Positions 37,757 to 54,152 are shown, counted from the first letter of the stretch. The stretch is DNA of 64,000 nucleotides from Prorocentrum cordatum (GCA_963575745.1 CAUYUJ010000093.1:1-64000); one strand, 5' to 3'. Notes: generated by a model not told the origin, from the sequence alone. Numbers and translations are program-made.

Positions 37757-38118
37757 ACAAGTAGGCGGACCAGGGTCCGTCCGCGAGGCGCACTGCGGTG
37801 CGACAACCCGCCAAACACTATTTGCGGCGGTGCAGCCTTGAGATACGAGGGCGGGCAACAAACCCCCTCCCCCGGCGCAATGCGACTGACGCTACAGACG
37901 GCGGACAGACAGTGAAGATCTCACGTGTCAGACCGCGTGACGAAGAAGGCCCCAACAAGAAAGGCGACGTGCTGACACGTGGCTAGGCGGCTTGGCAGAC
38001 CGCCAGTTGGGCGCTTGGCCGCAACGCGGCGCGCAGGGACGGGGCACCCCCCGCCCCCACGCCCTGACACCGTGGACGCGGGGCCACGCGTGCACACGGG
38101 CAGGCAGAATGGCGGAGA

Positions 38119-41100
38119 TTAGCGCGGGGCTCCAGGCGGAGCGCCGCGGAGCGATGACAGCATAGCATGGAGGGTGAGTGGCGGCGCAGCACCATCGGGC
38201 GAGGGTGTAAGCAGCTCGGCGAAGGCACGACCGGCGCGGTGGAGGCGCTGGAGCAGAGGGCCTTGACGGGCTTGAGCAGCGGCAAGGTCGGCGGCGAGAG
38301 CAGCACACCTCTGCTGAAGAGCGGCCATAGACTGGGACAGCTCGGCTTCGCGGTCGGTGAGGGGCGGCTGCTCTGTGCCTGCGGCCGCGGGCCTCGTGGC
38401 GGGGACGAGGTCATCGGTGCGCCTGGCCAGGTGGTGGACCAGCGCGGTGCGGCGATCCGTGCGCTGGCGGCCGTCGCCCTTGCGAGGCGACTGGAGGGCA
38501 ACGCGCGGCCCCAGGGCTGAAGCCGCTAGGGCCACGCCCCGTGAGGACGGAGGAGCCGCAGCCTCGCACCCAGCAACAGTAAAAGCGTGGACGGGGTGCG
38601 ACGGCCTGACTGGCTCAGTGCCCTGCGGGGGGGCTGGAGCCGCCCCCGCGGGCTGGCGCTGGTGGGGGGACGGGGTGGGTGGCACGGGGGGACCAATCAT
38701 GATGCCGTGCGAGGGCTCGGAGGTCGGCCGCGTGGTCGGGTGGCGTCTCGATGAAGCGGCATCGTCGGCAGCGTGGGGTGTCGGCGGGGCGTCGTCTATG
38801 CTGCCACTCAATCCGAGGGGATCATAAAGGTCCTCGTCGGCGTCTTGACGGTGAGCGACGTCATCATGTGGGTGCGATGTCGCTCTCGGTGGCGGAGTCG
38901 AGGTGGGCGTCGAGAGGCTGCCCGACGGGGCAGGGTTGGCGCTGGCTGGCCCGTCGTCCAGGAAGTCTAATCCCCCGCCGAAGCCGAACGGGTCGTCCTC
39001 CTGTTCGTCGTGCATCGCCCGTTGGGCCTCGGCCCAGAGCTCATCCGGGTTCTGCGGGATGTATGGTCCAGCCGCGGGTGGTGCCTGGTCCGACAGCAGG
39101 GGGTTCGGTTCCATTTTGCTGAGTTCCGCTGCTGTAAACCCAGCCCTGCGGTGTGGGAGCGGCAGAGTACGGTGTCTGCGCTCGTAGATAGCGACAGCGA
39201 CCCCATGAAGCACGGTCGCTTGGCGATGTCGTGTTTTGGCAGCTTCAACAATGTCGTCGGGGAGGTTGTGCGTGCGTGCCGCCGCTGTGGCAAGGGCGTC
39301 GGCCTGACGGTTGAACTCCTCCGCGATGGGCCCGATGAGCCCAAGGTCGATGCCCAGGTCTCCCAGGTGGCTGGCGATTTTTTCGACGCGAAACATGTTG
39401 GGCTTGGCCATAACACATCGGTGGATCTTTTCCCAGAGCTCCGCGTGCGTGCCCTGCGGCGCTGGATGTCCGTCGATGATGCTTTGGAACCCATCGACCA
39501 CCGCCTGGTTGTCCACGAAAACGTGCACGGGCCGTTCGGCACATGCCGTAAGGTGGACAATGGCGAGGGTCTCCGCAACCTGGGCGTTCTGCGTTAGGCC
39601 GTGAACGCGTGCACTGTAGTTCATGCGGTGATCGATGCCGTAGTAGACGCCGTAACCCGCTCGTGCTAGCAATGGGATGGCTTGGTTGGTGCACGCACCG
39701 TCCGTGGCAGCATAGACCCATGTCCAACCAGTGTCGTAGTCAAGGTAGGTGGTGTAGGTGTCCTGGGCTGAAGCCGCAGGATCACCATCAGGGGAGGGCC
39801 GCGGAATGGGCTGTGGCAGCGGGTCCCTCGCGAGGTCGGCCTGCAGGTCGAGGAGGGCTGGGTCTTCGTCGAAGAGCCCGCAGTGTCTTGTGTGCGGCGG
39901 AAGACGGGCCCACTGGTCGTCACTGATGAGGGTGGTGAGAGGGAGTCTTTCTCGGGCCCAGCACTTACAGTCGCGGACAGTGTGCTCCTGAGTTTCCTCT
40001 TCCTCGTCACAGTAGCGGCACATGGGGCTGGGGTCTGCCGACGTGTTTGATCGGGATCGTCGCTGTTGGGTGTGGTCCCCGCCCGACAGGTAGTTCAGGA
40101 GGAGCGCCAGCTGCCAGGCAGTGCATTTGGCTGCTCCTTTAGTTCGCGCGAGCCACGTGCTGGCGAAGAGGTCAAGGCCCTGTCTGACAGAGGCGAGGTA
40201 GCCAAGGTCGTGTCGCCGTGGCTTGATCCTCCGCAGAAATGCCCTGCGTTGTGAGGCCCGCAGCATGTGCAGGAAGGCGTTTTGGGGTAAATTCAGCCAG
40301 CTGATCGGGCAGCCCCAGTCGTCGTACATGATGCCAAATGTGGGCCAGGTCCATCGGAGCTGCTGGAGCGACTGGACGAGTCGTCCGACGGGTCCTCCAC
40401 CAAACAGGGTCTGGACGTGGTGTTGGAGGTCTCTGGCGAGCCCGCAGAGTGTAACGTCGCGGTTAACCTGTCGCCGCAGGCACAGGAATGCTTCACGCTG
40501 CGTGATGGCGTCGATCTCAAGGGCGTGTCCCGGCACGCACACGGCCATGAGAGTCCAGAACTCGACCCACTTGTTCCCCTTGGGGCGGATAGCCGCCTTG
40601 AGGGCGTGGTTGTAGGCAGTCTTGGCTGGGCCTGATGGTGCTTGAATGTCGGTGCCCGTGGTGCAGACGCTGGCAGCCAGGGATCGGGCGTGCCGCGCCT
40701 TGATAAGCATCGGCGACGGGAGCTTGCCAATGCGCGGCAGGCGGATAGTCGCCCTCCGTACACGGGCGTCTGCGGTGGCCGTGAGGTTAAGCGCGGCTGG
40801 AGCCGGCGCTGCCTCTGCGTTGATGTAACTCCCGACGAGCTTGAAGGAATCGACCACACGTAGGGGGCGATCCGCCAGTGTGAGCTGGGTAACGGCGGCG
40901 TGAAGCTCGTCGGTGAGCGCCCACCCTGCCACTTTACCAGGGTGAATGCGTTGACCTGAGAATCGATCAAACTTGGCGGTTTCGTCGAGAGATTTCTGCA
41001 GCTCAGAAGCGGTGTGGGTAGTGGAGTTGCTGTCGTCAACGAAGGTAGTGCTGAGTGATCGAGGAACGTATCGGTGCTGCCTCTTTGTCCACACGCACAT

Positions 41101-42732
41101 GAGCAGCTTGATGTCATCCAGGGACCACGAGCTGCCCTGGAGGTGACCGTTTGTCCTGGCCAGGTCCCTGGAGTACGCTCCGTTCATGCGGATGTAGCGT
41201 TTGTGGTGTCTGTAGAAATTTCGGCGGACAGTAACGATGTCTTGTGGACACCCCGCGTGCAGCGCAAGGTTTAGACAGATGTCCGTGATGAGGTAGTCGA
41301 AGCACTTCTGTCGGTCAAGGGCAGCTCCAGCTAAGGGGAGGAGTAAAGTCCTGGCGTGTTCGATGCGCAGGGCGAGAGAGGTGCTGACATCCCCAATGGT
41401 GGCTTTGGGAACAGCGCCGAAGCTCGTGGCATGGGTCCATCCTTGCCGCCAGGTCGTGAGGCTACGGTAGGCCGGCGCTTCCCACGCATACATCCACACG
41501 GAAAGAACCGAGAGAAGTCGTTGGTCCGTCGGGAGTTCCCCTCGGCCTTTTCGGAGGCACGGGTTTGGCACGTGCAGGAGGGGCTCGGGGATGGTGCCAG
41601 TGCGTTGCATAGCACGTAAGACGCTGGCGAAGAGGCGAAGGATGTCGTCGGGTAACTCCTTAGCCTCCTTAGTTGTCCAGCCGTCGAGTCCCCCCGCGCG
41701 GCGCGGTGAACGGGTGCGAATGAAGTGGATGAGTTGGTCGTCGGTGAGGTGGAAGGGGGCTGCTGGTGATGGCGTAGGCAGCTCTTGGCGGTATTCGTCG
41801 TAGAAGTCCGCCCACGTCGGCATAGCTTCGGCGTCATGGCCCGCGCGAGCGCGGTACCTGCCCAAGATGGGCTCCCAGGTGTCGACCATGAGCTTAAGCA
41901 TGTCTTTGGTGTTGGCAACAATAGCGTTGGCGGGGAGGGCGTCGGGAACCTGGGCAGGTGGTGGGCCACGAGTGTGGCCGTCGTCGTTGTCCGTGTCGAG
42001 CGAACTACCGTCGCTGGGGCTGAAGCCGCCGGCGTCGGTGTCGGCGTCACTATCGTCCGTGCTAGCTTGGTCAGGGTTGAAGGCGGTGGTGTCGCAGTGG
42101 AGCTGTGCATCGTCGGGAGTGGTAGGCGTGCGGAGATACGCCGTGGGCGAGCAGTCGGCAGCCCGTGCGTATATGGCCGCCTTTCGCCCGCTTGGCTCGC
42201 GGACACCCTCAGCCCAGATCTTGATGCGTTCAGCTTTGGCTCGGTTTGCACGTCGCGCCAGCTCCGAGTCTAGGTTTTGGATCAGACGATCTAGGTGCTC
42301 TCCGCGTGGTGCTGGCACGTCGGGGGCCCAGGCATCAGGAAAGGCCAGGAGGGCCGTGGGGCGCAGCTTGTGGCAGAGAAGGCGGGCCGCGGTCCACGTG
42401 CAGTCGATGCGTTGCGCCAGGTGCGGCGGGATAGCACGGCAGTCCATATGATGGTGCTGTCCGATGAAGCGAAGCTCGCAAAGTTGCCGATGGAGCTTGC
42501 GAAGGCGGTTCATGTGAATCGTGGAAGCTCCGTAGGTGGGAAAGGCGCGGGGGACGGCGGGTCGCTCCTCGAACGTGGGTGTGAGCCCGTGCATGGTAGG
42601 GGCCTTCTTTTTTGGGTGGTCTGGCGGTGGGGGCGGCAGGTCCCGCAGCCGGGTGAGATGGTACTCATGGCTGGCCTCGTTTGCCAGGGCGAACATGCGT
42701 TCCACATCGTCGCGTGTGTCAGCCTGCTCCAT
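38119..42732 (-). CDS. LINE reverse transcriptase + CCHC zinc finger + RNase H
   Basis: RT motifs AGGLDGW, LRKG...DQRLLSVL, ALDRQKCFD, GHLQGSSWS, TFVDD, FKLVG; zinc finger CRYCDEEEETQEHTVRDC; RNase HI TDGAC...AETLA...VDNQ...SH...NRQADALA with all four acidic residues. The frame is open upstream to ~42855 and overlaps the endonuclease ORF. Confidence 0.95.
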   Translation of the reverse strand: MEQADTRDDVERMFALANEASHEYHLTRLRDLPPPPPDHPKKKAPTMHGLTPTFEERPAVPRAFPTYGASTIHMNRLRKLHRQLCELRFIGQHHHMDCRAIPPHLAQRIDCTWTAARLLCHKLRPTALLAFPDAWAPDVPAPRGEHLDRLIQNLDSELARRANRAKAERIKIWAEGVREPSGRKAAIYARAADCSPTAYLRTPTTPDDAQLHCDTTAFNPDQASTDDSDADTDAGGFSPSDGSSLDTDNDDGHTRGPPPAQVPDALPANAIVANTKDMLKLMVDTWEPILGRYRARAGHDAEAMPTWADFYDEYRQELPTPSPAAPFHLTDDQLIHFIRTRSPRRAGGLDGWTTKEAKELPDDILRLFASVLRAMQRTGTIPEPLLHVPNPCLRKGRGELPTDQRLLSVLSVWMYAWEAPAYRSLTTWRQGWTHATSFGAVPKATIGDVSTSLALRIEHARTLLLPLAGAALDRQKCFDYLITDICLNLALHAGCPQDIVTVRRNFYRHHKRYIRMNGAYSRDLARTNGHLQGSSWSLDDIKLLMCVWTKRQHRYVPRSLSTTFVDDSNSTTHTASELQKSLDETAKFDRFSGQRIHPGKVAGWALTDELHAAVTQLTLADRPLRVVDSFKLVGSYINAEAAPAPAALNLTATADARVRRATIRLPRIGKLPSPMLIKARHARSLAASVCTTGTDIQAPSGPAKTAYNHALKAAIRPKGNKWVEFWTLMAVCVPGHALEIDAITQREAFLCLRRQVNRDVTLCGLARDLQHHVQTLFGGGPVGRLVQSLQQLRWTWPTFGIMYDDWGCPISWLNLPQNAFLHMLRASQRRAFLRRIKPRRHDLGYLASVRQGLDLFASTWLARTKGAAKCTAWQLALLLNYLSGGDHTQQRRSRSNTSADPSPMCRYCDEEEETQEHTVRDCKCWARERLPLTTLISDDQWARLPPHTRHCGLFDEDPALLDLQADLARDPLPQPIPRPSPDGDPAASAQDTYTTYLDYDTGWTWVYAATDGACTNQAIPLLARAGYGVYYGIDHRMNYSARVHGLTQNAQVAETLAIVHLTACAERPVHVFVDNQAVVDGFQSIIDGHPAPQGTHAELWEKIHRCVMAKPNMFRVEKIASHLGDLGIDLGLIGPIAEEFNRQADALATAAARTHNLPDDIVEAAKTRHRQATVLHGVAVAIYERRHRTLPLPHRRAGFTAAELSKMEPNPLLSDQAPPAAGPYIPQNPDELWAEAQRAMHDEQEDDPFGFGGGLDFLDDGPASANPAPSGSLSTPTSTPPPRATSHPHDDVAHRQDADEDLYDPLGLSGSIDDAPPTPHAADDAASSRRHPTTRPTSEPSHGIMIGPPVPPTPSPHQRQPAGAAPAPPQGTEPVRPSHPVHAFTVAGCEAAAPPSSRGVALAASALGPRVALQSPRKGDGRQRTDRRTALVHHLARRTDDLVPATRPAAAGTEQPPLTDREAELSQSMAALQQRCAALAADLAAAQARQGPLLQRLHRAGRAFAELLTPSPDGAAPPLTLHAMLSSLRGAPPGAPR

Positions 42733-42764
42733 GCGGTCGTGGTATCGTCCTGCGATGAGGGTCC

Positions 42765-43892
42765 CTAATGCCTGAAGTTCGTGGTCCTCATGAGCTCCGT
42801 CGTTGGAGGGTAAGGCGTGGGGGCCAGAAGGCGTGGGGCCGTGTGATCGAGGCGGCTAAGGTCGAGTGTGACCTGCAGGCCAACATGGGACTTCGCTGGC
42901 AAGTCACGCAGATAGCAGAAGTCGGTGACAAGGGATCGCGCAGCTTGGTTGGCGATGATATAATCGATGCGCGAAGTGCGGGGGCACTTGGTGACGCGGT
43001 CCCAGTCAGGGATATTGCCATATGTGTGCATGGTGTGGTCTGGTGTGCCTTCAGCGACGTTAAACCATCCGTGCTGCATCATGTGCAGCAGATGTGGATT
43101 GTCGTCGATGTTCGTGTTGGCGTCCATGCAAATGAAATACGGGGCTGAGCCGACCCTCGCGGCGGCGCAATCAGCAAGCCGAAACAAATCGGTGCTGTCC
43201 CCTCCAGCGACCCCGTAGAGGCTCGCAATGTAGATCCCAGCGGGACCGTGGTTGTTTCGTCGCCGCCTGCGGCGGTGCTGGGTGCAGAGCGGGAGGAAGG
43301 CCTCGTGCCATCGTTTCTTGGCCTTGAGGGTGGCGATACAGGTCGCAATGTCGTCGACGGTGGAGTCGACGATGGCGTCCTTAGAGAGGATGGCGACCCC
43401 ACCCGAGGCGCCGGTGTTGCCCTCGACCGTGTGGTCCGTGCCACCGTGAGCAGCTTTGCGCTGAGCACGCGCCAGATCCAGGTCAGGTCCCAGACTGGCC
43501 TGGTATCCTCCGTGGTGTGGATTGGCGGCGTTGGTAGCGATGGCTTGCCTGGTAGGCTTGGCATGTCGGGTCTCCTGCAGTGCTATGACTGCGGCGTTGT
43601 GGTCGACACCTAGAGCGGTGATGGTTGGCCAGTTCGCTGGGAGACTCGTGATGTTGAGGCTGACGAGGTGGATGGAGCGACCTGGCCCATCTCCGTCGGT
43701 GGAGCTGGGGTTAGCACGCCCCGCACGGTGGAGGGCAGCCTGGCCGTCACCCAGGTAGAAGGCTTGGCCACAGTAGGAGCTCATGGCGTCGCGGCAGATT
43801 GGCTTGGACGGGGCTGAAGCCGCCGTCGGGCCAAAAGTATAGGCAAGGCATGGTCGACGCTGCGCCGGGGGGGGGGTCATAAACATCGGCAA
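42765..43892 (-). CDS. LINE EEP/APE-type endonuclease
   Basis: SLNITSL, IALQETRH, SGGVAILSK, IASLYG, CMDANT, SRIDYII, SHVGL match EEP motifs in order. Probably part of a polyprotein with the RT via a 1-nt shift. Confidence 0.9.
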   Translation of the reverse strand: MPMFMTPPPAQRRPCLAYTFGPTAASAPSKPICRDAMSSYCGQAFYLGDGQAALHRAGRANPSSTDGDGPGRSIHLVSLNITSLPANWPTITALGVDHNAAVIALQETRHAKPTRQAIATNAANPHHGGYQASLGPDLDLARAQRKAAHGGTDHTVEGNTGASGGVAILSKDAIVDSTVDDIATCIATLKAKKRWHEAFLPLCTQHRRRRRRNNHGPAGIYIASLYGVAGGDSTDLFRLADCAAARVGSAPYFICMDANTNIDDNPHLLHMMQHGWFNVAEGTPDHTMHTYGNIPDWDRVTKCPRTSRIDYIIANQAARSLVTDFCYLRDLPAKSHVGLQVTLDLSRLDHTAPRLLAPTPYPPTTELMRTTNFRH

Positions 43893-46800: not shown

Positions 46801-49800
46801 CCTGGTAGTGGTATCGCCATGGTCGTGGTGAAGGATGACCCAGCCATCGCGACCCGCAACCGCAGGGTCGATAACGCGGTGGCCCACAACGGTCGCCCCC
46901 CACGGTAGGTAGGCGCCATCGTGATGCTCGCCCGGGTCAAGCCAGACCTCGACGCCAGGGGCGTTCACACGGGCCCGCACATCGCGGACGTGGAAGGCGA
47001 GGACGTGGTAGGCGGTCGGCTCCTCTTCCGTCTCGATGTGCTCCCACGTCTCGATGTCGCTGCTGTGAGAGGTGGAGTTTCCGCCGCTCTGCCGTGACGA
47101 ACGCGAGGCGGATCGCCGTGAGCGGGCATGGCCTCGGGCGAGGGCGGCGGCCGCGCTGATGAGGGACGGCGTACGGCGGTCGTCGGCTCCCGATGTCGTC
47201 GATGAGCGGTCTGGACTGTGTCCCAGGGCGGCACCTGGCTGATAGGTGTGCGATGGGCCAGACGCGGCCCCAGGGCTGGAGCCGCTGGGGCGCGGCGCTC
47301 GTACGTCGGACTGCCCCCGCACGGGAACGGCCTGCAAACCAGTGTACACCAGGTCGATCAGTGGCTGCGGGTCCAGCTGGAGCTTGCGAAGCGAGGCGCG
47401 CGGACGGGGCTGGTTGGGGTCGGCCCTGGTGGCTGCTTCGGTGTCGTAGTGCTGTGTAGCCCATGCTCGCGCTGCCTCTGGCGAGTATAGTGCCTGCGGC
47501 GGTGGCCACGCTGCCGCGGTGTCCAGCCGGCGCCAGGTGTTTGCTTCCTGGTCGCGGGCTTCAGCCGCCTCGCGGAGGTCTGGGTGATCGAAGCCGGCAA
47601 TGTGGAGGGCGTGCGCACAGTCGCCCATGCCATAGGTGTGTGGGAGGGCACGGCACCTGGAGGCAGCTTCGGTGGGGGCACACCAGTCCATGCGGATGAG
47701 GAGGCCCAGGACCCGTGGGTAGATGAGGCGCGCTCCGTGAGCCTCCCCTTTCACGAAGTTGTGCCAGTTCTCACCGCGCGGCGGTTTGGTAGCCTCGCAC
47801 ATCCAGAGCGCGATGGGTCCCCAGGCGAGGGTGTCGTCTTCGAGGCTGCAGGGCGGGTGAGGCGGCACCGCGTACCACGCGGCCAGCGACGGGTGCACAC
47901 TCACGTACGTGCGGCCGACATTTGTGGCGGTTCGACCCTTCGCTTCACGGCGGGGGCCCGGCAGGAGGTGACCTCCGTTGAAAGCGAGACGAGCCGCAAG
48001 GTCGCCGCGGGTCCCGTGCCAGAAGACCGTGGGCGTGTCAGTGGTGGGTTCACGGAGGTCCCACGTGAGGTAGGGGAAGATCGTCTCGCCTGAGTTCCCA
48101 CCCGAGTCTTCCAGCACCCAAGTGAGTCGGTTCGGGGGCCTCTGCATGATGTCAGTCCACGGCGCCAACGCTTGGAGCGTTGGGTCATGGGTGAATCGAG
48201 GATGGTCGTAGAGTCGCAGGGCGTCTTTGATGTCCTCTGTAGTCACGCCACTGTTACCAAGCGCAAAGCCGTTCTGGTACAGGGAGGTGAGGATGCTCGT
48301 CGGCGGCACGGGGACCGCTGGGTCGCGCTGGATGGTGCTGCGTAAGTTGCGCGTCGGTGGCCTGAGGGCTGGGTGGGGCGTACCAGGGCCTGGAGGCGCC
48401 TGGGGCCTGGCGGGTGATGCGTAGCGTGCTCGCCGTCGTGGTGGTTGGGTGTCCATGTCGGAAGAGGAACCACGAGCATCTGCATGTCGGAAGATGGACC
48501 ACGGGCTGTCGAGGGTGCGCTCACGTGTTTCACTTGCCTCGGCGTCGGTGGCCTGAGCTGTGGCGTCTTCGTGAGTCGGCGGGTTGCCATAGGCCGCGCC
48601 GCTTGTGGGGCCGTCTCGCGGGGACGGGCTGGTCGACCGTGGTGTGACAGACGAGGCTCGCGATACCGCGGCAGTGACTTCAACAATGGCGGCGGTGGTG
48701 GCGGTGGTGACATCGGCGACTGCGGCGGCAACTGCAGCAGCATAGTGTTCCTGTAGCAGCGGGTGTCGAAGAGAGTGCACGTGCTGGCTCTCGGGGTCGT
48801 CGGGATGCGTGCGCGGCATTGTGTGTGTGGCCTCATCGCGCGGCCTCCTGATCGGTTGGCAACAGCGGAGGCACCACTGGGCCGTGGGTGAGTCCAGGGC
48901 GCGCGCACAGATGCGGGCTCCTACGTGTCCGACGGCTCCTTGAGCGAGAAGTTTGGCGCCGACCAGGAGAAGACCGCAAACCACTCCGCCTGTGGCAATA
49001 GCTCCGAGTTTGCCGCTGGCCCATTTCAGGGCACCCCAGAGGCCAGACCCGACTGCGCTGGCTCCGCCCGAGACGATGTCTCTGAGTTTGGCACTGGTCC
49101 ACTTGAGAATACCCCACAAGGCGGGCGCGGCGTCGTATGCCGTTGTGCGTCGGGGCGTAGTGGACACGGATGGGCCTGGTGCCGCAGCTTCACGGCGTCG
49201 TCGCTGCCGGTAGCTGGGGTCTCGGCTCGGTGTCGGCAGGTACCCGTCGATCTGGTCCTTGTACGGCATGGCTACCACGATGGCATACGTGGCCACGAAG
49301 AGGCAGATGAGACAGCCGCAGCGTCGGGAGGCCGCTGCGCTGTGCGGGGCCTCGTAGGAGCCGCTGGCGTCGGGGCTCGCGTCCTCGATGGGATCATTGT
49401 CGATGCCAGCCTGCCAGTGGTCGACGGCGCTGGAGTTGGAGTCAGTCGCGTTAGCTCGGCAGACAAGGGTGCGGGGCGGGGTCCTGCCACCTGAGGTCTG
49501 AAGACGCCCAGATCCAGCCAATGCTGCAGCGGGGCTGAAGCCGCCACTGCGCGGGCTGGTGAGAGCTGGCAGTGCAGTGGAATGGCTTGTCTCGTCGGCG
49601 GCGGTGGCGCCTTCGGCGTCGCTGAGCTGTGCGCTGGGGTCGGCCTGGGCCGAGTTGATGGGCGCACTGCTGTGCGACAGGGGGCGCCCTGTGTAGGGTT
49701 CGCTGTCACGGTCGCGCTGGGCCGTGTCACCTGGCGGTGTCGTGCCGTCGAGGTCCTGGGTTTCCGTGTCGTGGATGGAGTCGTTCTGGCTATCGTCCGA

Positions 49801-50394
49801 CACGTGGAACGAGTCCAGGGATATGTTGCTGATATCGCTGGCAGCGGTGTGCTGGAGCAGAAGCGGTTCGGCGTCGGCCGCGGGCTGGTCACACGTGGCG
49901 TTCTGGGCGAGGGGGCCAGCTGGCGGTGGTAGGTTTAGCGGTTCCATCGGTGCCGCGGCGAGCTCCGCCTCGACAAGCGGCTGCAGGTCTGGCGGGTGGT
50001 GCAGGATCGCATCCGCGAGATACGCCAGGGCGTCTTGGTCGGGCGGAGGGAGGCCTCTTGGCAGCAAGGCGTGGGCCCGTGAGAGGCATGGCGGCAGTGG
50101 TGCCGCGAAAGCCTCAGGGCCGACGAGCTGGGCACGAGCGCCCTGGTATTCCAGAAGAAACCAAAGTAGCGGGTGGGGCACTCGTGGCTGCCCTGGATAC
50201 GAGTGAGGTTGCGGTTGGTGCGCTGTCTGTCGGGGCCCGCTCTGTGCCAGATATCTTCGCACATGTCGAACGCGGTGCGGTGGCGCAGGGCATCGTTTTT
50301 CTCCGCGGAGTCCTCCTGGAAAAAGTGGTCGTACTGTGGCAGATGGAGCGTCGCCAGGACGTGCGGGACGCAGTCCTCGAGCCATGCCCAGCAC
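43747..50394 (-). CDS. 2215-aa cargo ORF: hydrophobic segments, ART/PARP-like domain, SH3-like, Cys-rich and ubiquitin-like modules in P/A/R/S-rich linkers
   Basis: 6.6-kb uninterrupted frame co-oriented with RT; VFWHGTR...TYVS.HP..A.WYA...LGLLIRM (47690-48040); Cys cluster 46320-46560. True start uncertain; probably continues from the upstream ORF near 50180. Confidence 0.75.
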   Translation of the reverse strand: MLGMARGLRPARPGDAPSATVRPLFPGGLRGEKRCPAPPHRVRHVRRYLAQSGPRQTAHQPQPHSYPGQPRVPHPLLWFLLEYQGARAQLVGPEAFAAPLPPCLSRAHALLPRGLPPPDQDALAYLADAILHHPPDLQPLVEAELAAAPMEPLNLPPPAGPLAQNATCDQPAADAEPLLLQHTAASDISNISLDSFHVSDDSQNDSIHDTETQDLDGTTPPGDTAQRDRDSEPYTGRPLSHSSAPINSAQADPSAQLSDAEGATAADETSHSTALPALTSPRSGGFSPAAALAGSGRLQTSGGRTPPRTLVCRANATDSNSSAVDHWQAGIDNDPIEDASPDASGSYEAPHSAAASRRCGCLICLFVATYAIVVAMPYKDQIDGYLPTPSRDPSYRQRRRREAAAPGPSVSTTPRRTTAYDAAPALWGILKWTSAKLRDIVSGGASAVGSGLWGALKWASGKLGAIATGGVVCGLLLVGAKLLAQGAVGHVGARICARALDSPTAQWCLRCCQPIRRPRDEATHTMPRTHPDDPESQHVHSLRHPLLQEHYAAAVAAAVADVTTATTAAIVEVTAAVSRASSVTPRSTSPSPRDGPTSGAAYGNPPTHEDATAQATDAEASETRERTLDSPWSIFRHADARGSSSDMDTQPPRRRARYASPARPQAPPGPGTPHPALRPPTRNLRSTIQRDPAVPVPPTSILTSLYQNGFALGNSGVTTEDIKDALRLYDHPRFTHDPTLQALAPWTDIMQRPPNRLTWVLEDSGGNSGETIFPYLTWDLREPTTDTPTVFWHGTRGDLAARLAFNGGHLLPGPRREAKGRTATNVGRTYVSVHPSLAAWYAVPPHPPCSLEDDTLAWGPIALWMCEATKPPRGENWHNFVKGEAHGARLIYPRVLGLLIRMDWCAPTEAASRCRALPHTYGMGDCAHALHIAGFDHPDLREAAEARDQEANTWRRLDTAAAWPPPQALYSPEAARAWATQHYDTEAATRADPNQPRPRASLRKLQLDPQPLIDLVYTGLQAVPVRGQSDVRAPRPSGSSPGAASGPSHTYQPGAALGHSPDRSSTTSGADDRRTPSLISAAAALARGHARSRRSASRSSRQSGGNSTSHSSDIETWEHIETEEEPTAYHVLAFHVRDVRARVNAPGVEVWLDPGEHHDGAYLPWGATVVGHRVIDPAVAGRDGWVILHHDHGDTTTRLWAPTQVHVKADDTWRTVMIAADLGPQWIERHADDARLPAEVVRTTGQSWFADVWPLWDRPRPHPDDAVTDEQAFPPLPGRWTCLQCRFQCCQYCAARRNTQLGTSGQPTCPDCSLSGLRAPMDWSTDYSCNSWTCAYSTDNRDSDTCCLSSRCPHPPRPHSLFDVRATGMPPHILARQYGNAPAQHDLKEPPRAPSGPGGEPPQPGQAGYQGQWYLPPRPRRVLKQGLPDGTRRPPGFTGTGMPEDPSPDQPLWKEGYVLFGPHQALKEDFIFNKAVRRPYSLAITNMHRDRVTVRTVCESIAERIHTTRTRWRDVVLYWDAEGGPGPQALDYDMRLCDAMVSRATTEAELNHDRSNRGSFCLYGPAHQRAVNITVLPEPQNIDFVEHVRRYSPVGETYPDHAFEHVYQGWRRPDVPPILPDTRPLSRADQQRYQQHQQRTQQRDQRDAGQPSTPRNRSPARVPTGDSAVYGGGAAYHRGPIGARPAAAGAAASSYGHAPHARVHPAVVGYPRALGQAPPRATSPVPGSTRAWGHYPGRHDSTASNQPAVAPPAASAQGAAPSRGRTGRPEGWREANVRAWQPRQHTPPPNVAAALRPAQAKPAPPERERQPLVPLVLTHTQAHHSASPRHSEGSAHHVSPRPDAVDPDQAAASAAGGTGGSRPPSPTPCAAPIRSPSRADSARANAQVASPRDRHTGGRVPRSRSYSRHSSRKPPGSSTSSPPRETQADGQASEVVPRFGASAIEPGEVDLEPTPSTDQELPPPTRVVVAFDEAPTFDPFKHKYSVKGLAAGFGGGSPLPPLSHGGGPATSAAAAAAAAPRGVSPVRNACLAAAGMDEAQRQATDRAARYAQLVADALAGRAPPQPQGPPPEASAEGAPEPAVPADAAHHGTDGAGAPPQDGPAVSRAQYLRARCAAAAPSCRRWFAFALELGRTDRGVASLSPCCRLTSPPSVPHGTGVRRIFRGSFADVYDPPPGAASTMPCLYFWPDGGFSPVQANLPRRHELLLWPSLLPG

Positions 50395-51266
50395 ACGTCC
50401 TGATGGTCCTCACCTGGTGCCCACGCCGCGGCGCACGGTATGAGCCGTGCTCGGATGTTCATCAGGTGCCAGAAAGCGGGGTCCTCCTCGGGTTCACCCC
50501 TGGCGCACAGAGGGGTAGTGGGACTCGTGGGGCTGAAGCGGGGCACGACAGCGGGGCTGAAGCCGCCACTGCGTGCCTGGGCCTTGCTAGCGGCCCTGTC
50601 GAGGATATGCTGCACGACGGTCGAGGACAAGCTGAGGACAGGGTACCATCGAGGATATGCTGCACGACAGTCGACCGCGAGCGTCATGTTGAGTGATGGT
50701 AGCCCTCGTAGCTGAACTTGCATGCGGTGCGAGGCGTGGCCGGAGGACGCAGGAGTCATCTCAGCTGCGGCAACATCGGTGGTCGACTGCGATGCATGTG
50801 TCGTAGTTGACGAGGGCGTGCTCGTAGGAGACATGCTGGTACTCGTCGTAGACGTCGTAGTAGCCGTCGAAGTCCCAGGGGGGCAGCGCGTGGGGCGGGG
50901 CCCCTGGTGCTGCTCAGGCCAGGCGCTCGCGGGGGCGCCCAGCGGCCCGGTGCCGCACGGACCAGCGGCGGCGGTGCTGTTCACGATCGGGTCCAAAATG
51001 GCGCTGTGATCGTATTTGTAGATGCTGTCATCGTAAAGGTAGAAGAGCGTCCCACGCTCCGCATGTCGCAGGAAAGCCTCTCCTCCGTGCTGGGGCGCAC
51101 CGCCTGAAGACGGGTGTGCTCCAGCCAGCGAGGGGAGGGCCAGGCCGCAGGCAAGGCGCCACATGATGGCGAGGCCTGGCGGGCGGCGCGAGCGATGAGC
51201 CGAAAGCTGCGTGGCAGCACACGTCCTCAAATACCCCTGAATGCTCATGTACATTGCTACAATCAC
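49935..51266 (-). CDS. 443-aa ORF with signal-peptide-like and S/T-rich segments; probable N-terminal part of the cargo polyprotein
   Basis: MWRLACGLALPSLAGA, a TSTATTTSTTSTSMSPTST tract, then a W/C/H-rich globular region; overlaps the 2215-aa ORF by 460 nt. Confidence 0.55.
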   Translation of the reverse strand: MIVAMYMSIQGYLRTCAATQLSAHRSRRPPGLAIMWRLACGLALPSLAGAHPSSGGAPQHGGEAFLRHAERGTLFYLYDDSIYKYDHSAILDPIVNSTAAAGPCGTGPLGAPASAWPEQHQGPRPTRCPPGTSTATTTSTTSTSMSPTSTPSSTTTHASQSTTDVAAAEMTPASSGHASHRMQVQLRGLPSLNMTLAVDCRAAYPRWYPVLSLSSTVVQHILDRAASKAQARSGGFSPAVVPRFSPTSPTTPLCARGEPEEDPAFWHLMNIRARLIPCAAAWAPGEDHQDVCWAWLEDCVPHVLATLHLPQYDHFFQEDSAEKNDALRHRTAFDMCEDIWHRAGPDRQRTNRNLTRIQGSHECPTRYFGFFWNTRALVPSSSALRLSRHHCRHASHGPTPCCQEASLRPTKTPWRISRMRSCTTRQTCSRLSRRSSPRHRWNR

Positions 51267-51425
51267 GCCCCCTGCAAGACTACGGGTGTCCCTACACCAG
51301 ATAGCTTGCGCGTGCTGCTGCCAAAACAGACATGAGGTAACAAGAAAGAGATACGACGCGAAGAGGGGAGCGATGCCTCTGAAGGCGCTTCCTCGGAGGG
51401 CTGAGGCGGGCTCTCTGAGGCACCT

Positions 51426-53999
51426 TCAATAGGGTTCCTGGGTGGCCCGACCCTTGTCCTTGCCTTTGTCGGCCCCTGGGGGCCCCGTCCCTGGGGTGGC
51501 CTGGCCTGGCTGGTCGGTCAAACTGCAGGCTGCCGCGGGCTCGGCGGCCGCTGCGGCTTCCTCCTTCTTAGTTTCCAGAGTGGCCGCTTGTGGCAGGTGG
51601 ATGGTGCCTCCCGTGAGGTGCCCGAGGAGGGTCTGGATGTCGCCGCGCAGTGCAGCGGCGTCGGCGGTTGCCGTCTGTTGCTGGGTGACGACGGTGGCAA
51701 GCCCCCGTTCCAGCCCTGAAACGTGCTCCGTGAGTGTGGCCTGGGAGGAGAGAACGCCCGCAAGCTGCACCTGCATGTTATCCACCGTGTTGGCTAGCAG
51801 CTCGTGCTGCTGTTCCATGTGCTGGATGCGGGTCGTGGCAGCATCGGGCGGTTTAGAGGCCGATGCGAAGCGCTCGCCGAAGGTGTTGAGTTCGTGGGAG
51901 GCCACGCTGTATTCATCACCTGATGAGAGGATCTCGACGTCGACGACGTCACCTGGTACTTCGGCGGCTGTGGCAGCGTCGCCTTCGGTGTGGCCCCCAC
52001 CTTCTGCCGCCGCCGTGCCAAGCCAGGGGTCGTGGCCACCTGGTCCTGGGGCGGCCGTCGGTTCAGCGGCTCCGTCCGTGCCGTGCGGGGGCGCAGAGGA
52101 GCTGCGGCCTGGGGCGCAGGGTGGCCTTGCGTGCGGCGTGGCGTCACGTTTCCCGCTGGAGGAGCGGTGGCGCTTGGCTGAAGGCTCCTCCTTGGGGGTC
52201 AGGAGCGGTGCGACGCCCTTGCCTTTGGGCGTGGCAGTCATGAGGTCGTGGAGGTAGGGGCTCTGGGCCGCTTTGGTGAGGAGTGTGCCGGTGGCGGGGC
52301 TAAAGCCGCCACCACCGGCTGGCGGCGTCACAGGCTCTGTGATGGTGGTAGGCGTGACGATGGTAACGTTGTCCCGCTTCGGCGCCACCTCAGCCAGCGG
52401 GGCCTCGGTGATGCTCCACGGGATGGGGCACCCCGCGACCTGCACCGTATAGGTGAGTGGGGGCCGATGAGCGCGCACTAAGGCAAACTGGGCCGCAGTG
52501 GCTGGGTCCCAGGCGGTGTGGTAGACCTCACAGTCCCATTTAACGGACGGGCCCGTGAGAGTCTTGGCGAGCTGGGTCAGCGTGGCGTGGCGTGCCGCAA
52601 TGCCAGTGATGCGGTAGCGCGTCTTGGCGAGGGTAGCCTCGCAGCCGCGGATGCTGACAGCAGCGGCCTTGGCGACGTCGGACCCCCGCGGAACACGGAT
52701 CCCCAGCAGGCCTGACTTGCCGTGCCTGACGACTCCCAGGGCCTTGAACTCCACCGACTTCTGGAACGCGTCTGCCATCGTGATGGGCTGGTCCTCAGGG
52801 AACCAAACGGTCTGATACTTGTCGGCGGTGGGCTCGTCTGCACCTACGTTGCTGAGGTCGTAGGTGGCACCGAGTTGCCCTGATCCCGCCAGGACCTTGT
52901 CGACCGCTTGGAGACTGACGCCGAAGGTGGCAGCCAGGGACCTCTTTCCGACGCCCGATCCAAACCTGCCTAGGCTTTTGCAGGGTTCGAGGATGGTGAC
53001 GGCTTTAAAGTTGCCGTGGAAGAGGGCCTTGAAGGTGTCCTGGAGCTGGCTATCGAGCTCCTGGCGGCGAGCGTCTTTCTTGGACTCCTTGTGCTTTTGG
53101 CGCGCCTTGTCCTGTGGAGCGGAGTCGCCTCGAAAAGGGCCCTTGGCGCGTGGACCACCGTTCACGGGGGCACCTCCCGAGAACTGGTCCTCGAAGGCCT
53201 GGTGCATGGAGGGGACTGCGGCAATGGCCTCGGTCTCGTGTATGGTCGCCCGAATCCAGCAGACGTGGTCGGCAGGGTCGATGGTGGCGACGGCTACCTT
53301 TTCCGTGCAGGCGACCTCCTTGGTGCCCAGCTGGTACACGATCACGGGGACGTGCGTGTGGACCACTTTGGGCGCCTTGGGGTGGCGCTTCAGGACGGGG
53401 ACGGCGAGCTCGGTACCGACGTAGTTGTCGTTTTTCGGGCCCATGACAGCAATCGCGAGCTGACCCGTGGCTCGCTTGCCCTGCTCGAGGTGGTGCTGCA
53501 GCAGCCGTTCACCACTCTCGTAGTCGTGGAGGCTGATGCTGGGCTTGTACGTCTTGCCGTCGTCAGGCGAGGTGGGTTCGGCAAGGACAGGGACCTTCCA
53601 AAAGGCAGGGTCCAAGGCGATGAATTGGGTGTCCGCAGCCTGAAGACGTGCGGAGCCCGCTGGTGGATGCGATGTGTCACCGCCAGTGCGCTTAGGCTTG
53701 CTGCGCTGGTGGTGATCGAGCGTGTAGCTAATCTGGTTGGCGGCGCACATGCGGATAAGGGCGCTGCCAAGCTTCTTCGTGTTGGACTTGTGCATGTCGT
53801 ACATTGCCTGGAGCTCGTCCGCGTTCAGTTCGGCTAGCCCGTTGTAGGCGGCCGTGGGGCGGTCAGACCCCGCTTGCCTGAACGCTGCGATGCAGTCCTG
53901 CTTGCGTTGAAGGAGGGACCCTTCAGCAGCAGGGCGCGTGGGACGGGAGCTCGGAGGCTGCTTAGAAGAGCGACGGCGCTCCGGCTTCTTGGGGGCCAT
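51426..53999 (-). CDS. ORF1-like protein of the LINE (~857 aa)
   Basis: First ORF, ~150 nt from the 5' boundary, starting MAPKK at the ATG at 53999; alpha/beta RRM-like central region (LGIRV...RYRITGI...LVRA..PP) and C-terminal heptad coiled coil (RIQHMEQQHELLANTVDNMQVQL...). Position is typical of ORF1. Confidence 0.75.
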   Translation of the reverse strand: MAPKKPERRRSSKQPPSSRPTRPAAEGSLLQRKQDCIAAFRQAGSDRPTAAYNGLAELNADELQAMYDMHKSNTKKLGSALIRMCAANQISYTLDHHQRSKPKRTGGDTSHPPAGSARLQAADTQFIALDPAFWKVPVLAEPTSPDDGKTYKPSISLHDYESGERLLQHHLEQGKRATGQLAIAVMGPKNDNYVGTELAVPVLKRHPKAPKVVHTHVPVIVYQLGTKEVACTEKVAVATIDPADHVCWIRATIHETEAIAAVPSMHQAFEDQFSGGAPVNGGPRAKGPFRGDSAPQDKARQKHKESKKDARRQELDSQLQDTFKALFHGNFKAVTILEPCKSLGRFGSGVGKRSLAATFGVSLQAVDKVLAGSGQLGATYDLSNVGADEPTADKYQTVWFPEDQPITMADAFQKSVEFKALGVVRHGKSGLLGIRVPRGSDVAKAAAVSIRGCEATLAKTRYRITGIAARHATLTQLAKTLTGPSVKWDCEVYHTAWDPATAAQFALVRAHRPPLTYTVQVAGCPIPWSITEAPLAEVAPKRDNVTIVTPTTITEPVTPPAGGGGFSPATGTLLTKAAQSPYLHDLMTATPKGKGVAPLLTPKEEPSAKRHRSSSGKRDATPHARPPCAPGRSSSAPPHGTDGAAEPTAAPGPGGHDPWLGTAAAEGGGHTEGDAATAAEVPGDVVDVEILSSGDEYSVASHELNTFGERFASASKPPDAATTRIQHMEQQHELLANTVDNMQVQLAGVLSSQATLTEHVSGLERGLATVVTQQQTATADAAALRGDIQTLLGHLTGGTIHLPQAATLETKKEEAAAAAEPAAACSLTDQPGQATPGTGPPGADKGKDKGRATQEPY

Positions 54000-54151: not shown

Positions 54152-54152
<1 letters not shown>

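What the first reader, a model, noticed from the sequence alone, without database searches (positions are those of the whole stretch)
38507..53654. At least 12 copies of one bulged-C, UUYA-loop RNA hairpin hidden in the LINE coding sequence
Seen: on the + strand, arm-GNC-TGAA(once TAAA)-GN'C-G-arm' occurs at 38507-38533, 39757-39786, 42007-42039, 43807-43827, 45120-45144, 46197-46227, 49491-49511, 49526-49550, 50542-50577, 51095-51119, 52287-52319 and 53632-53654. On the transcript each is lower stem / bulged C / 3-bp stem / UUYA loop (e.g. GCCGGUGGUGG-C-GGC-UUUA-GCC-CCGCCACCGGC; UCCGCA-C-GUC-UUCA-GGC-UGCGGA). The lower stems (5-12 bp) mostly differ in sequence yet always pair. The middle upper pair covaries (G-C, C-G, U-A, U-G). 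By hand count, 7 of 10 purine-pyrimidine mismatches are G-U on the sense strand. Copies lie in all five ORFs and all three frames (read as GGFSP, AASA or RLQ), so protein constraint does not explain them. I saw no full match outside the element. Established: bulge-plus-short-loop hairpins are protein operators in MS2 coat binding and iron-responsive elements. Inference: a distributed recognition/packaging code for the element's own protein (ORF1 or RT cis-preference), which I do not know to be described for LINEs.
Basis: partly seen in the sequence, partly recalled or inferred. Interest (0 to 1): 0.9.

Follow-up and report, generated by a model that had tools for sequence, protein, structure and literature searches.

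The report
Evenly spaced hairpin array inside a LINE
A 16.4-kb jumping gene carries 16 evenly spaced copies of one small RNA hairpin written through its protein-coding sequence, which looks like a set of docking sites for a protein that handles the element's own RNA.

Summary
All 12 listed sites exist. Allowing a UYYA loop adds four more, giving 16, all on the element's sense (minus) strand. Each has a lower stem, an unpaired C, a 3-bp stem and a 4-nt loop. Synonymous-codon shuffles that keep the protein give 0.09 such hairpins against 14 observed. The arms differ in sequence but pair. A covariance model finds nothing similar elsewhere in the window. New here: the hairpins are spaced about 1.1 kb apart, far more regularly than chance. 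Several coincide with short insertions relative to hairpin-less relatives. Two pairs share arms. Three of four copies from another source keep them. The first ORF encodes an RRM-like fold plus a predicted long helix. Not reproduced: the claimed G-U bias towards the sense strand. Folding energies do not pick a strand either. The 'five ORFs' are probably fewer, broken by frameshifts in this copy. Best reading (about 0.4): cis-acting operator hairpins for ribonucleoprotein assembly on the element's RNA. Main rival: hairpin cassettes spread by template switching, with no function.

The parts
37753..54152 (-). Full-length LINE-like retroelement, about 16.4 kb. The 5' end starts AGTCTCGGCTCGAGAG; the 3' end is ...CCTACTTGTCCGGTC followed by (TC)n.
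   Evidence: Sequence read. An independent copy has the same two termini, separated by about 88 nt of (CT)n (L007). (AG)n arrays flank it.
51426..53999 (-). ORFa, an ORF1-like protein of 857 aa. It has an N-terminal helical part, two consecutive RRM-like units (about aa 390-540) and a predicted long C-terminal helix (aa 721-798). The stop codon is conserved in homologues.
   Evidence: Five homologues at 41-96% identity (96% for the partial one), all four full-length ones ending ...PY. AlphaFold models. All 50 best VIA rows are RRM domains, Z 6.3-8.0. Foldseek's best rows are tandem RRMs, E 0.004-0.1.
49935..51425 (-). ORFb (496 codons stop to stop), in the same frame as ORFa directly after its stop. 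No known domain.
   Evidence: A +G at 50160 in other copies would fuse it to ORFc.
43747..50409 (-). ORFc (2220 codons). No known domain; has a Cys-rich stretch. Carries 7 hairpins.
42765..43913 (-). AP-endonuclease ORF.
   Evidence: Pfam Exo_endo_phos, 31.7 bits against a cut-off of 24.5. It is fused to the RT in relatives P0001 and P0040.
38119..42855 (-). RT - CCHC zinc knuckle - RNase H ORF with a long, variable C-terminal tail.
   Evidence: Weak RVT_1, zf-RVT and RNase H1 matches. 1721 homologues at E<=0.001.
53626..53660 (-). Hairpin h53648: UCCGCA-C-GUC-UUCA-GGC-UGCGGA. Codon phase 1 (SARLQ).
   Evidence: 32.0 bits. The copy in L007 has a 9-bp perfect stem, 33.6 bits. SARLQ is kept in homologues down to 59% identity.
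52286..52320 (-). Hairpin h52308: 11-bp lower stem, C, GGC-UUUA-GCC. Phase 3 (GGGFSP).
   Evidence: 34.9 bits. GGGFSP or GGGSSP is kept in homologues down to 59% identity.
51090..51124 (-). Hairpin h51112: C-GUC-UUCA-GGC. Phase 2.
   Evidence: 31.3 bits.
50543..50577 (-). Hairpin h50565: C-GGC-UUCA-GCC. Phase 3 (SGGFSP). 25 nt are identical to h49543.
   Evidence: 33.8 bits. Contig joints to h52308.
49521..49555 (-). Hairpin h49543: C-GGC-UUCA-GCC. Phase 3 (SGGFSP).
   Evidence: 40.3 bits.
49484..49518 (-). Hairpin h49506: C-GUC-UUCA-GAC. Phase 1 (GRLQT).
   Evidence: 31.3 bits.
48376..48410 (-). Hairpin h48398 (new here): C-GCC-UCCA-GGC. Phase 2.
   Evidence: 34.7 bits. The copy in L008 has a UUCA loop, 33.1 bits.
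47262..47296 (-). Hairpin h47284 (new here): C-GGC-UCCA-GCC. Phase 3. 29 nt are 93% identical to h38525.
   Evidence: 37.9 bits.
46195..46229 (-). Hairpin h46217: C-GCC-UUCA-GGC. Phase 2. One A-C mismatch next to the closing pair.
   Evidence: 35.3 bits.
45115..45149 (-). Hairpin h45137: CCCCCUG-C-GGC-UUCA-GCC-CAGGGGG. Phase 2 (PAASAQ).
   Evidence: 35.9 bits. The region is an 11-aa insertion relative to P0157.
43800..43834 (-). Hairpin h43822: GACGG-C-GGC-UUCA-GCC-CCGUC. It lies in the ORFc/APE overlap.
   Evidence: 35.4 bits.
42006..42040 (-). Hairpin h42028: C-GGC-UUCA-GCC. Phase 3 (AGGFSP). This copy has a C-A mismatch.
   Evidence: 35.7 bits. Copy L005 has the pair intact, 38.7 bits; copy L009 has decayed, 14.6 bits. 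It coincides with a 9-aa insertion relative to L002 and L001.
40783..40817 (-). Hairpin h40805 (new here): AGCGC-C-GGC-UCCA-GCC-GCGCU. Phase 2 (APAPA), inside the RT ORF.
   Evidence: 29.5 bits. It lies in a 6-aa insertion relative to P0001, P0002, P0003, P0026 and P0037. P0011 reads PASA there, which fits a UUCA loop.
39754..39788 (-). Hairpin h39776: UCCUG-C-GGC-UUCA-GCC-CAGGA. Phase 2 (PAASAQ), just upstream of RNase H.
   Evidence: 32.8 bits. It lies at a 2-5-aa insertion relative to P0015, P0036, P0020, P0002 and P0001.
38620..38654 (-). Hairpin h38642 (new here): GCGGGGG-C-GGC-UCCA-GCC-CCCCCGC. Phase 2.
   Evidence: 34.6 bits.
38503..38537 (-). Hairpin h38525: 12-bp lower stem (2 G-U), C-GGC-UUCA-GCC. 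Phase 2 (LAASAL).
   Evidence: 40.1 bits.
37039..37752 (.). (AG)n/(CT)n microsatellite next to the 3' end: target site and/or tail.
54153..54761 (.). (AG)n/(CT)n microsatellite next to the 5' end.

Best explanation
The 16 hairpins are cis-acting operator sites on the element's full-length sense RNA. Each shows the same apical module, an unpaired C, a 3-bp helix and a U-Y-Y-A tetraloop, on top of a stem of arbitrary sequence. A trans-acting factor reads this module. The most likely factor is the element's own ORF1-like protein, which has RRM-like units and a predicted long helix.

One site about every 1.1 kb would let the protein nucleate along the whole 16.4-kb RNA as it is translated. That could mark this RNA for ribonucleoprotein assembly, protection and reverse transcription (cis-preference).

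New sites arise as short in-frame insertions, or as copies of existing hairpins, in disordered linkers. They are kept where they fill a gap.

Shown: the hairpin family, its strand specificity, its independence from coding, the pairing with different arm sequences, the regular spacing, its persistence in other copies, and an RRM-like fold in ORFa. Inferred: that the structure acts as RNA, that a protein reads it, that the protein is ORFa, and what binding achieves.
For: The family is discrete. The 16 copies score 29.5-40.3 bits; the next best hit in 74.6 kb scores 18.4 bits.

All 16 are in the sense orientation and none in the antisense. The reverse complement of the core gives a stop codon in only one of three frames, so coding does not force this (my inference).

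Protein-preserving synonymous shuffles give 0.91 cores (maximum 5) and 0.09 cores with a stem of 4 bp or more, against 16 and 14 observed. All three codon phases are used: 2, 8 and 6 copies.

76.7% of cells pair against 53.1% in shuffles. The covariation score is 0.582 against 0.162, reached by 0 of 500 shuffles. Slid controls give 35-52%. The five innermost lower-stem pairs form in 15-16 of 16 copies, each with 3-5 pair types.

All 16 minimum-free-energy folds show the architecture. 14 of 16 lie in the most stable 7% of windows of the element.

Spacing: 10 of 15 gaps lie within 20% of the median (P=4e-5). The coefficient of variation after merging the two close pairs is 0.23 (P=1e-5). This is not caused by repeated 1.1-kb modules.

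Independent copies keep the hairpin at 3 of 4 homologous places: 38.7, 33.6 and 33.1 bits. One of them has a longer, perfect stem.

The peptides SARLQ and GGGFSP/GGGSSP persist inside otherwise variable linkers in ORFa homologues down to 59% identity. The one F-to-S change corresponds to the UUCA-to-UCCA loop variant also seen in the window.

ORFa residues about 457-540 match RRM domains in all 50 best rows, Z 6.3-8.0. A second beta-alpha-beta unit lies upstream.
Against: No binding, structure-probing or expression data exist. No RNA run was usable.

Neither wobble pairs nor energies favour the sense strand. The acting molecule could therefore be the first-strand cDNA.

The RT-ORF hairpins are absent from relatives at 65% or less (42028 in L002 and L001; 40805 and 39776 in L001). 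P0157, at 61% identity, lacks h45137. The array is therefore young or dispensable.

Across the four copy comparisons, hairpins carry about as many differences as their flanks: about 12 seen against about 11 expected by my count. None is clearly compensatory, as expected for dead copies, so this gives no support.

Two hairpin pairs share 25-29 nt. Copying, rather than selection, may therefore explain part of the uniformity.

The RRM assignment rests on Z of 8 or less and Foldseek E of 0.004 or more. The spacing test was devised after seeing the data.
Confidence: 0.4

Rival explanations
1. Self-propagating hairpin cassettes with no function. A short palindromic module is copied to new places in the element by reverse-transcriptase template switching, or by gene conversion between hairpins. 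It survives wherever a disordered linker tolerates the extra residues. The uniform core reflects common descent and homogenisation. The uniform orientation reflects copying between sense RNAs.
For: Hairpins coincide with insertions relative to hairpin-less relatives at 42028 (9 aa), 39776 (2-5 aa, depending on the relative) and 45137 (11 aa). 40805 lies in a 6-aa insertion.

h50565 and h49543 share 25 identical nt. h47284 and h38525 share 29 nt at 93%, in different codon phases.

Contigs join h50565 to h52308 in both the deletion and the duplication sense. Deletions start right beside h50565. The hairpins are therefore recombination or switch points.

The array is lineage-restricted.

Template switching is known to create hairpin stems (PMC8794818, abstract seen in the listing).
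Against: Random insertion does not predict gaps of 1022-1340 nt in 11 of 15 intervals.

Template switching explains complementary arms. It does not explain an invariant unpaired C plus an 11-nt core at 16 sites.

Arms mostly differ, so most copies are not recent duplicates.

The two ORFa hairpins appear to persist down to 59% protein identity.
Confidence: 0.27
2. The structure acts on DNA, not RNA. The hairpins form in the antisense first-strand cDNA (arm-GGC-TGAA-GCC-G-arm'), or as cruciforms. There they organise second-strand synthesis, RNase H processing or strand transfer at regular intervals along a very long cDNA.
For: The antisense fold is as stable as the sense fold: -23.7 against -23.0 kcal/mol with RNA parameters, and the sense is better in only 7 of 16. 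A-C mismatches, which are G-T on the antisense strand, are as common as G-U. The element carries its own RNase H and is unusually long. Regular spacing suits a processive synthesis task.
Against: An internal hairpin has no free 3' end to prime from. No purine-tract-like feature is seen. No precedent was found in the searches. Nothing here tests it directly.
Confidence: 0.12
3. A host factor, or translation itself, reads the hairpins. Examples are a host RNA-binding or RNA-modifying enzyme, an export or silencing-evasion factor, or stable stems in the linkers that pause ribosomes between the domains of a giant polyprotein.
For: The hairpins sit in variable or low-confidence linkers wherever this could be checked: ORFa at pLDDT below 50, the RT-ORF indel sites and the C-terminal tail. 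The stems are strong, -14 to -33 kcal/mol.
Against: Pausing needs neither a conserved loop nor a conserved bulge. No host data exist. No such hairpin occurs in the other 48 kb of the window.
Confidence: 0.15
4. It is chance, or a by-product of a repeated peptide or of GC-rich codon usage.
For: G-, A-, P- and S-rich linkers use codons that are complementary to one another (GGN against NCC). This raises the background level of pairing.
Against: Dinucleotide shuffles give 1.29 against 13 observed. Synonymous shuffles give 0.09 against 14, and codon-order shuffles give 0.002. There are three codon phases with three different peptides. None lies on the antisense strand.
Confidence: 0.01

Closest known systems
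Multiple dispersed packaging signals of single-stranded RNA viruses (MS2, STNV, parechovirus, enterovirus, HBV pregenome)
   Same: Both have many stem-loops scattered through the coding genome. They share a short loop or bulge motif on stems of differing sequence, and each is thought to contact one copy of the cognate protein. Sources: PMC6281560, PMC4751978, PMC5431903 and PMC7612645, abstracts seen in the listing.
   Different: This is a non-LTR retrotransposon, and no capsid-like protein was detected. The motif is far more uniform (11 nt nearly invariant) and the spacing far more regular than the degenerate viral signals. Binding is untested.
3' stem-loop of stringent-type LINEs, recognised by their own ORF2 protein (zebrafish ZfL2 and relatives); conserved 3' UTR stem-loop of L1 and Alu
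   Same: Both are an element-specific RNA hairpin read by the element's own protein to choose its template. Sources: PMC4176376 and PMC5135761, abstracts seen in the listing.
   Different: Those are single sites in the 3' UTR or tail. Here there are 16 sites, all inside coding sequence. The model finds only a 10.1-bit, E=10 match on the other strand in the 3' UTR, 37753-38118.
Phage coat-protein operators (MS2, Q-beta, PP7) and the iron-responsive element (recalled, not from a call)
   Same: The architecture matches: a lower stem, one unpaired base on the 5' side, a short upper helix and a small loop.
   Different: The unpaired base is C rather than A (phage operators). The upper helix is 3 bp and the loop 4 nt, against 5 bp and 6 nt in the IRE. 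No Rfam family reaches its threshold on the element.
Palindromic elements inserted in frame into genes (Rickettsia palindromic elements, mitochondrial GC clusters; recalled, not from a call)
   Same: Both are short palindromes found as in-frame insertions in tolerant parts of proteins, relative to homologues that lack them.
   Different: Here the host is itself a transposon. The units are only 21-36 nt. Only the core is conserved, all 16 share one orientation, and they are evenly spaced.
Hairpins created by short template switches during replication
   Same: Arms that are inverted copies of neighbouring sequence can arise in one event and without a change in length. Source: PMC8794818, abstract seen in the listing. 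Compare the RYR...TGT hairpin of L001 and L003.
   Different: Template switching does not predict a shared core, a shared unpaired base, one orientation or even spacing.

Membership tests
Non-LTR (LINE) retrotransposon, AP-endonuclease type with RNase H | AP-endonuclease domain | tested here: met
   Pfam Exo_endo_phos, 31.7 bits against a cut-off of 24.5, E=1.7e-7.
Non-LTR (LINE) retrotransposon, AP-endonuclease type with RNase H | Reverse transcriptase domain downstream of the endonuclease | tested here: inconclusive
   RVT_1 scores only 13.1 bits against a cut-off of 29.6, and zf-RVT 14.5 bits. However, there are 1721 homologues at E<=0.001, a conserved FVDD motif, and relatives that fuse the endonuclease to this domain.
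Non-LTR (LINE) retrotransposon, AP-endonuclease type with RNase H | No LTRs; defined termini with a simple-repeat tail or target | tested here: met
   Two independent copies have the same 5' and 3' termini, flanked by (CT)n. One pair of copies is head to tail.
LINE ORF1 protein with RRM and coiled coil | RRM fold and a coiled coil in the first ORF | tested here: inconclusive
   All 50 best VIA rows are RRMs, Z 6.3-8.0, rmsd 2.1-4.8 Å over 64-82 residues for the single-RRM rows; five tandem-RRM rows align 131-138 residues at rmsd 6.2-12.2 Å. Foldseek gives tandem RRMs at E of 0.004 or more. A long helix is predicted at 721-798, at pLDDT 46-64. No sequence-profile hit.
Dispersed packaging signals (ssRNA-virus type) | Several stem-loops across the genome sharing a recognition motif on variable stems | tested here: met
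   16 copies over 15.1 kb. The core is invariant at 7 of 11 positions, and the arms vary and pair.
Dispersed packaging signals (ssRNA-virus type) | Sequence-specific binding by the cognate coat or nucleocapsid protein, and a role in assembly | not testable with these tools
   No RNA-protein prediction or assay is available. No capsid-like domain was found in ORFb or ORFc.
Stringent-type LINE 3' stem-loop | Located in the 3' UTR or tail, next to the site where reverse transcription starts | tested here: not met
   All 16 lie in coding sequence. The last one is about 770 nt from the 3' end. In the 3' UTR the model finds only a 10.1-bit, E=10 match on the other strand.
Iron-responsive element | Unpaired C, 5-bp upper helix, 6-nt loop (recalled) | tested here: not met
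   The upper helix is 3 bp and the loop 4 nt in 16 of 16 copies. No Rfam hit at the gathering score.
Mobile in-frame palindromes (RPE or GC-cluster type) | Present as an insertion relative to homologues, with the whole unit conserved in sequence and found in either orientation | tested here: not met
   The insertion criterion is met at 3-4 sites. However, the arms are not conserved and the orientation is 16 to 0.

The most novel reading that the evidence does not exclude
A LINE has evolved a virus-like, multi-site assembly code. It consists of evenly spaced operator hairpins, one about every 1.1 kb of a 16.4-kb RNA, each read by its RRM-bearing ORF1 protein. The code is lineage-specific: the UUCA-loop hairpins occur only in this subfamily, while a relative seems to carry CCAA-loop hairpins instead. 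The code grows by copy-paste of operators into protein linkers. This would make cis-preference a readable, mutable sequence code rather than a by-product of translation in cis.
Probability: 0.25. Interest if true: 0.85.

Novelty: new variant of a known kind. Interest (0 to 1): 0.72.

Why it matters
How LINE proteins pick their own RNA (cis-preference) is a long-standing question. The known RNA signals are single 3' stem-loops. An array of identical, evenly spaced operator hairpins inside coding sequence would be a different solution, closer to the dispersed packaging signals of RNA viruses.

It is directly testable. Sixteen natural variants of one small hairpin and one candidate RRM protein are available for binding assays.

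It also shows how strongly RNA-level constraints can shape protein linkers: the same 11 nt are read as GGFSP, AASA or RLQ.

If the rival is right, it is a clear case of hairpin cassettes spreading inside a retroelement by template switching. That would be of interest for how structured RNA arises.

Tried and rejected

No RNA holder was listed among the sequencing runs, so nothing can be said about expression or RNA ends.

The scan of viral contigs found nothing. Earlier findings of this scan returned nothing.

Rfam gave only a sub-threshold mir-598 match: 30.9 bits against a cut-off of 69, on the other strand. I take it as chance.

Pfam, NCBIfam and PDB sequence searches gave nothing for ORFb or ORFc.

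A full-text search for the core sequence found only primers and unrelated uses. Searches for LINE coding-region stem-loops and for dispersed packaging signals in retrotransposons found no description of such an array. These cover open-access papers and bioRxiv only.

A strand call from wobble pairs or energies showed no difference.

Internal 1.1-kb protein repeats as the cause of the spacing: none found.

Lower divergence in hairpins than in flanks among copies: not seen. By hand I counted about 12 differences in four 35-nt windows, against about 11 expected. None of the 40 differences listed by read laying falls in a hairpin, against about 1 expected. Both tests are underpowered.

The compensatory changes that their peptides allow therefore remain unverified.

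A peptide-level (protease-site) reading was rejected, because the three phases give unrelated peptides.
Full report
WHAT IS THERE

The region is one full-length retroelement on the minus strand, 54152 to 37753, about 16.4 kb. Its 5' end (AGTCTCGGCTCGAGAG...) and 3' end (...CCTACTTGTCCGGTC) both abut long (CT)n/(AG)n arrays. An independent copy from another source has exactly the same termini. There the 3' end of one copy is followed by about 88 nt of (CT)n and then the 5' end of the next (L007).

The coding content is as follows:
- ORFa, 857 aa.
- ORFb, directly after ORFa's stop and in the same frame.
- ORFc, 2220 codons.
- An AP-endonuclease ORF (Pfam Exo_endo_phos above the cut-off).
- An RT-zinc knuckle-RNase H ORF, with only weak profile matches but 1721 homologues.

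In other copies of the family, single-base indels occur inside each of the three ORF overlaps: +G at 50160, -1 at 43867, and +1 at 42802 or 42804. By my frame arithmetic each would join the neighbouring frames. Relatives have the endonuclease and the RT in one protein. The stop after ORFa is kept in all four full-length homologues. The 'five ORFs' are therefore most likely ORF1 plus one giant ORF2, or possibly two, broken in this copy.

The family is very abundant in the runs that hold it, and marine and freshwater metagenomes also hold it.

CHECK OF THE OBSERVATION

The core GNCTRAAGNCG occurs 13 times in 64 kb against 1.29 expected from dinucleotide shuffles. Twelve of these lie on the + strand within the element. 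Allowing U-Y-Y-A loops adds four sites with UCCA, at 48398, 47284, 40805 and 38642. That gives 16 sites, each with C as the unpaired base. The seven other core-like strings in the window have flanking stems of 0-2 bp.

Lower stems of 4 or more contiguous pairs occur in 14 of 16 copies. The null frequency at random positions of the element is 1.9%.

Shuffling synonymous codons while keeping every protein gives 0.91 cores (maximum 5) and 0.09 cores with a stem, against 16 and 14 observed. Shuffling codon order gives 0.20 and 0.002. The antisense strand has none.

The unpaired C falls on codon position 1 in 2 copies, position 2 in 8 and position 3 in 6. The same nucleotides are thus read as RLQ, AASA/APAP or GGFSP/GSSP.

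On the 35-column alignment of the 16 copies, 76.7% of cells pair against 53.1% in shuffles. The covariation score is 0.582 against 0.162, reached by 0 of 500 shuffles. Sliding the partners gives 35-52%. The middle upper pair is G-C in 11 copies, C-G in 2, U-G in 2 and U-A in 1.

A covariance model built from the 16 copies scores them at 29.5-40.3 bits, which is expected by construction. The next best hit in the window and five loci scores 18.4 bits, apart from an independent copy of one hairpin at 38.7 bits.

All 16 local minimum-free-energy folds contain the proposed architecture. Their mean is -23.0 kcal/mol, against -10.7 +/- 4.5 for 794 background windows.

WHAT DID NOT HOLD

Over the 16 copies, G-U pairs on the sense strand number 12. 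A-C oppositions, which would be G-U on the other strand, number 18. The count is 9 against 11 in the inner pairs, and 7 against 7 within the lower stems. The antisense fold is as stable as the sense fold: -23.7 against -23.0, with the sense better in 7 of 16.

Differences from the window among family copies are also strand-asymmetric in kind: on the + strand G>A outnumbers C>T and A>G outnumbers T>C, each by about two to three times. This would confound such a count in any case.

What does remain strand-specific is the orientation, 16 to 0. The reverse complement of the core would be a stop codon in only one frame of three, so coding does not explain it (inference).

NEW OBSERVATIONS

(1) Spacing. 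The gaps between successive hairpins are 1340, 1196, 547, 1022, 37, 1108, 1114, 1067, 1080, 1315, 1794, 1223, 1029, 1134 and 117 nt. Ten of the 15 lie within 20% of the median (P=4e-5 against random placement). After merging the two close pairs, the coefficient of variation is 0.23 (P=1e-5). I devised this test after seeing the numbers. The segments between hairpins are not repeats of one another.

(2) Origin. Where hairpin-less relatives can be aligned, the hairpin sits at an insertion. It is 9 aa at 42028 relative to L002 and L001, 2-5 aa at 39776 relative to five relatives and 11 aa at 45137 relative to P0157. 40805 lies in a 6-aa insertion that relatives at 54-68% share without the exact core. 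h50565 and h49543 share 25 identical nt. h47284 and h38525 share 29 nt at 93%, although they are in different codon phases. Some contigs join h50565 to h52308 in the deletion sense and some in the duplication sense. Deletions begin right beside h50565. Hairpins are thus copied and recombined.

(3) Persistence. A bacterial bin contaminated with this eukaryotic element gave four contigs at 89-97% nucleotide identity.
- The h42028 homologue in L005 has the C-G pair where the window has C-A (38.7 bits).
- The h53648 homologue in L007 has a perfect 9-bp stem where the window has 6 bp (33.6 bits).
- The h48398 homologue in L008 has UUCA where the window has UCCA (33.1 bits).
- The h42028 homologue in L009 has decayed: its loop is GUCA, it has three arm mismatches, and it scores 14.6 bits.

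In ORFa homologues, SARLQ and GGGFSP stay put in otherwise variable linkers down to 59% identity. The one substitution, GGGSSP in P0153, corresponds to the UCCA variant. At 41% identity both are gone. The peptides flanking GGGFSP in P0155 (TGGG...PTPG) can encode an 11-bp stem.

Relatives of the RT ORF at 57-65% identity lack the hairpins at the homologous places, and have no core anywhere.

(4) A candidate reader. ORFa is conserved (41-96% identity to the five homologues). Its residues about 390-540 fold, at pLDDT 79.5 when predicted alone, into two beta-alpha-beta-beta-alpha-beta units. All 50 best structure matches are RRM domains, Z 6.3-8.0 (the same picture appears). Foldseek's best rows are tandem RRMs at E 0.004-0.1. 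A long helix follows at 721-798. RRM plus coiled coil is a known ORF1 make-up in LINEs (PMC4120745 and PMC3905857, titles and abstracts in the listing). Both ORFa hairpins lie in segments with pLDDT below 50.

INTERPRETATION

The family is real, discrete, orientation-specific and independent of coding. A conserved apical module on arbitrary stems is the signature of a site read by a trans-acting factor. Even spacing argues that the distribution itself is selected. The element encodes a plausible RNA-binding protein.

I therefore favour, at about 0.4, operator hairpins on the sense RNA that nucleate the element's ribonucleoprotein.

The main rival, at about 0.27, is that the cassettes spread by template switching or conversion and are merely tolerated. 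This explains the insertions, the shared arms, the joints and the single orientation. It does not explain the spacing or the invariant bulge and core.

A role on the first-strand cDNA (about 0.12) cannot be separated from the RNA reading with these data. Nor can a host-factor or translational role (about 0.15).

Copies in the genome are mostly dead. Equal divergence in hairpins and flanks is therefore expected under every reading and decides nothing.

COMPARISON WITH WHAT IS KNOWN

The nearest concept is the set of dispersed packaging signals of ssRNA viruses (abstracts). The nearest LINE precedent is the single 3' stem-loop of stringent-type LINEs (abstracts).

The architecture recalls phage coat operators and the IRE (recalled from memory). 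The dimensions and the unpaired base differ, and Rfam has no match.

In two full-text searches and one search for the motif string I found no description of an array of identical hairpins inside LINE coding sequence. Subscription journals were not searched.

I rate it a new variant of a known kind.

Noticed in passing
L001:698-1530 and 3642; L003:277 and 604: A relative lineage (57% aa identity in the RT ORF) lacks the UUCA hairpins. It has 5 perfect 5-8-bp hairpins whose loops contain CCAA, against 0.94 expected; the highest count among 200 shuffles was 5. Two of them are shared with L003. This may be a lineage-specific counterpart of the array. The motif was chosen after seeing the data.
   Followed up: partly
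window 41880-41700 and the homologous parts of L001-L004: At two homologous places upstream of the RT domain (after the conserved ILxRYR, and at RRAGG), the three lineages each carry a different small palindrome. GC-rich Arg, Pro, Ala and Gly codons make this partly expected by chance.
   Followed up: partly
window 50160, 43867, 42802-42804: Other copies of the family carry single-base indels at these places. Each lies inside an ORF overlap and would join the two frames. The window copy therefore looks frameshifted, and the intact element probably has fewer, larger ORFs.
   Followed up: partly
window 50551-50580 and 52285-52321: Rare contigs join hairpin h50565 to hairpin h52308. Some skip the 1.75 kb between them; others go back, giving a duplication or circle junction. 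Several deletions of 209-374 nt start at 50580, right beside the hairpin.
   Followed up: no
window 37039-37752 and 54153-54761; L007:136-222: The element sits inside an (AG)n/(CT)n array. Another locus has two copies head to tail, separated by about 88 nt of (CT)n. This suggests a microsatellite-specific target or a (CT)n tail.
   Followed up: partly
window 38000-54100: Differences between this copy and other copies are mostly transitions and are strand-asymmetric. On the + strand G>A is 313-422 against C>T 150-204, and A>G is 261-304 against T>C 85-107.
   Followed up: no
L005-L010 (handle G001): A bacterial metagenome bin holds at least four short contigs of this eukaryotic retroelement at 89-97% identity, so the bin is contaminated.
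   Followed up: no
window 18263-18934, 32907-34849, 35964-36781, 59550-61083, 61700-62587: The surroundings are rich in tandem repeats: (TCATCA)n and (CATCAT)n arrays up to 1.9 kb, satellites of 151-152 nt at two places, and a 90-nt repeat.
   Followed up: no
window about 46300-46500 (ORFc): There is a Cys-rich stretch in ORFc (WTCLQCRFQCCQYC...CPDC...) with no profile match. P0158 aligns to it.
   Followed up: no
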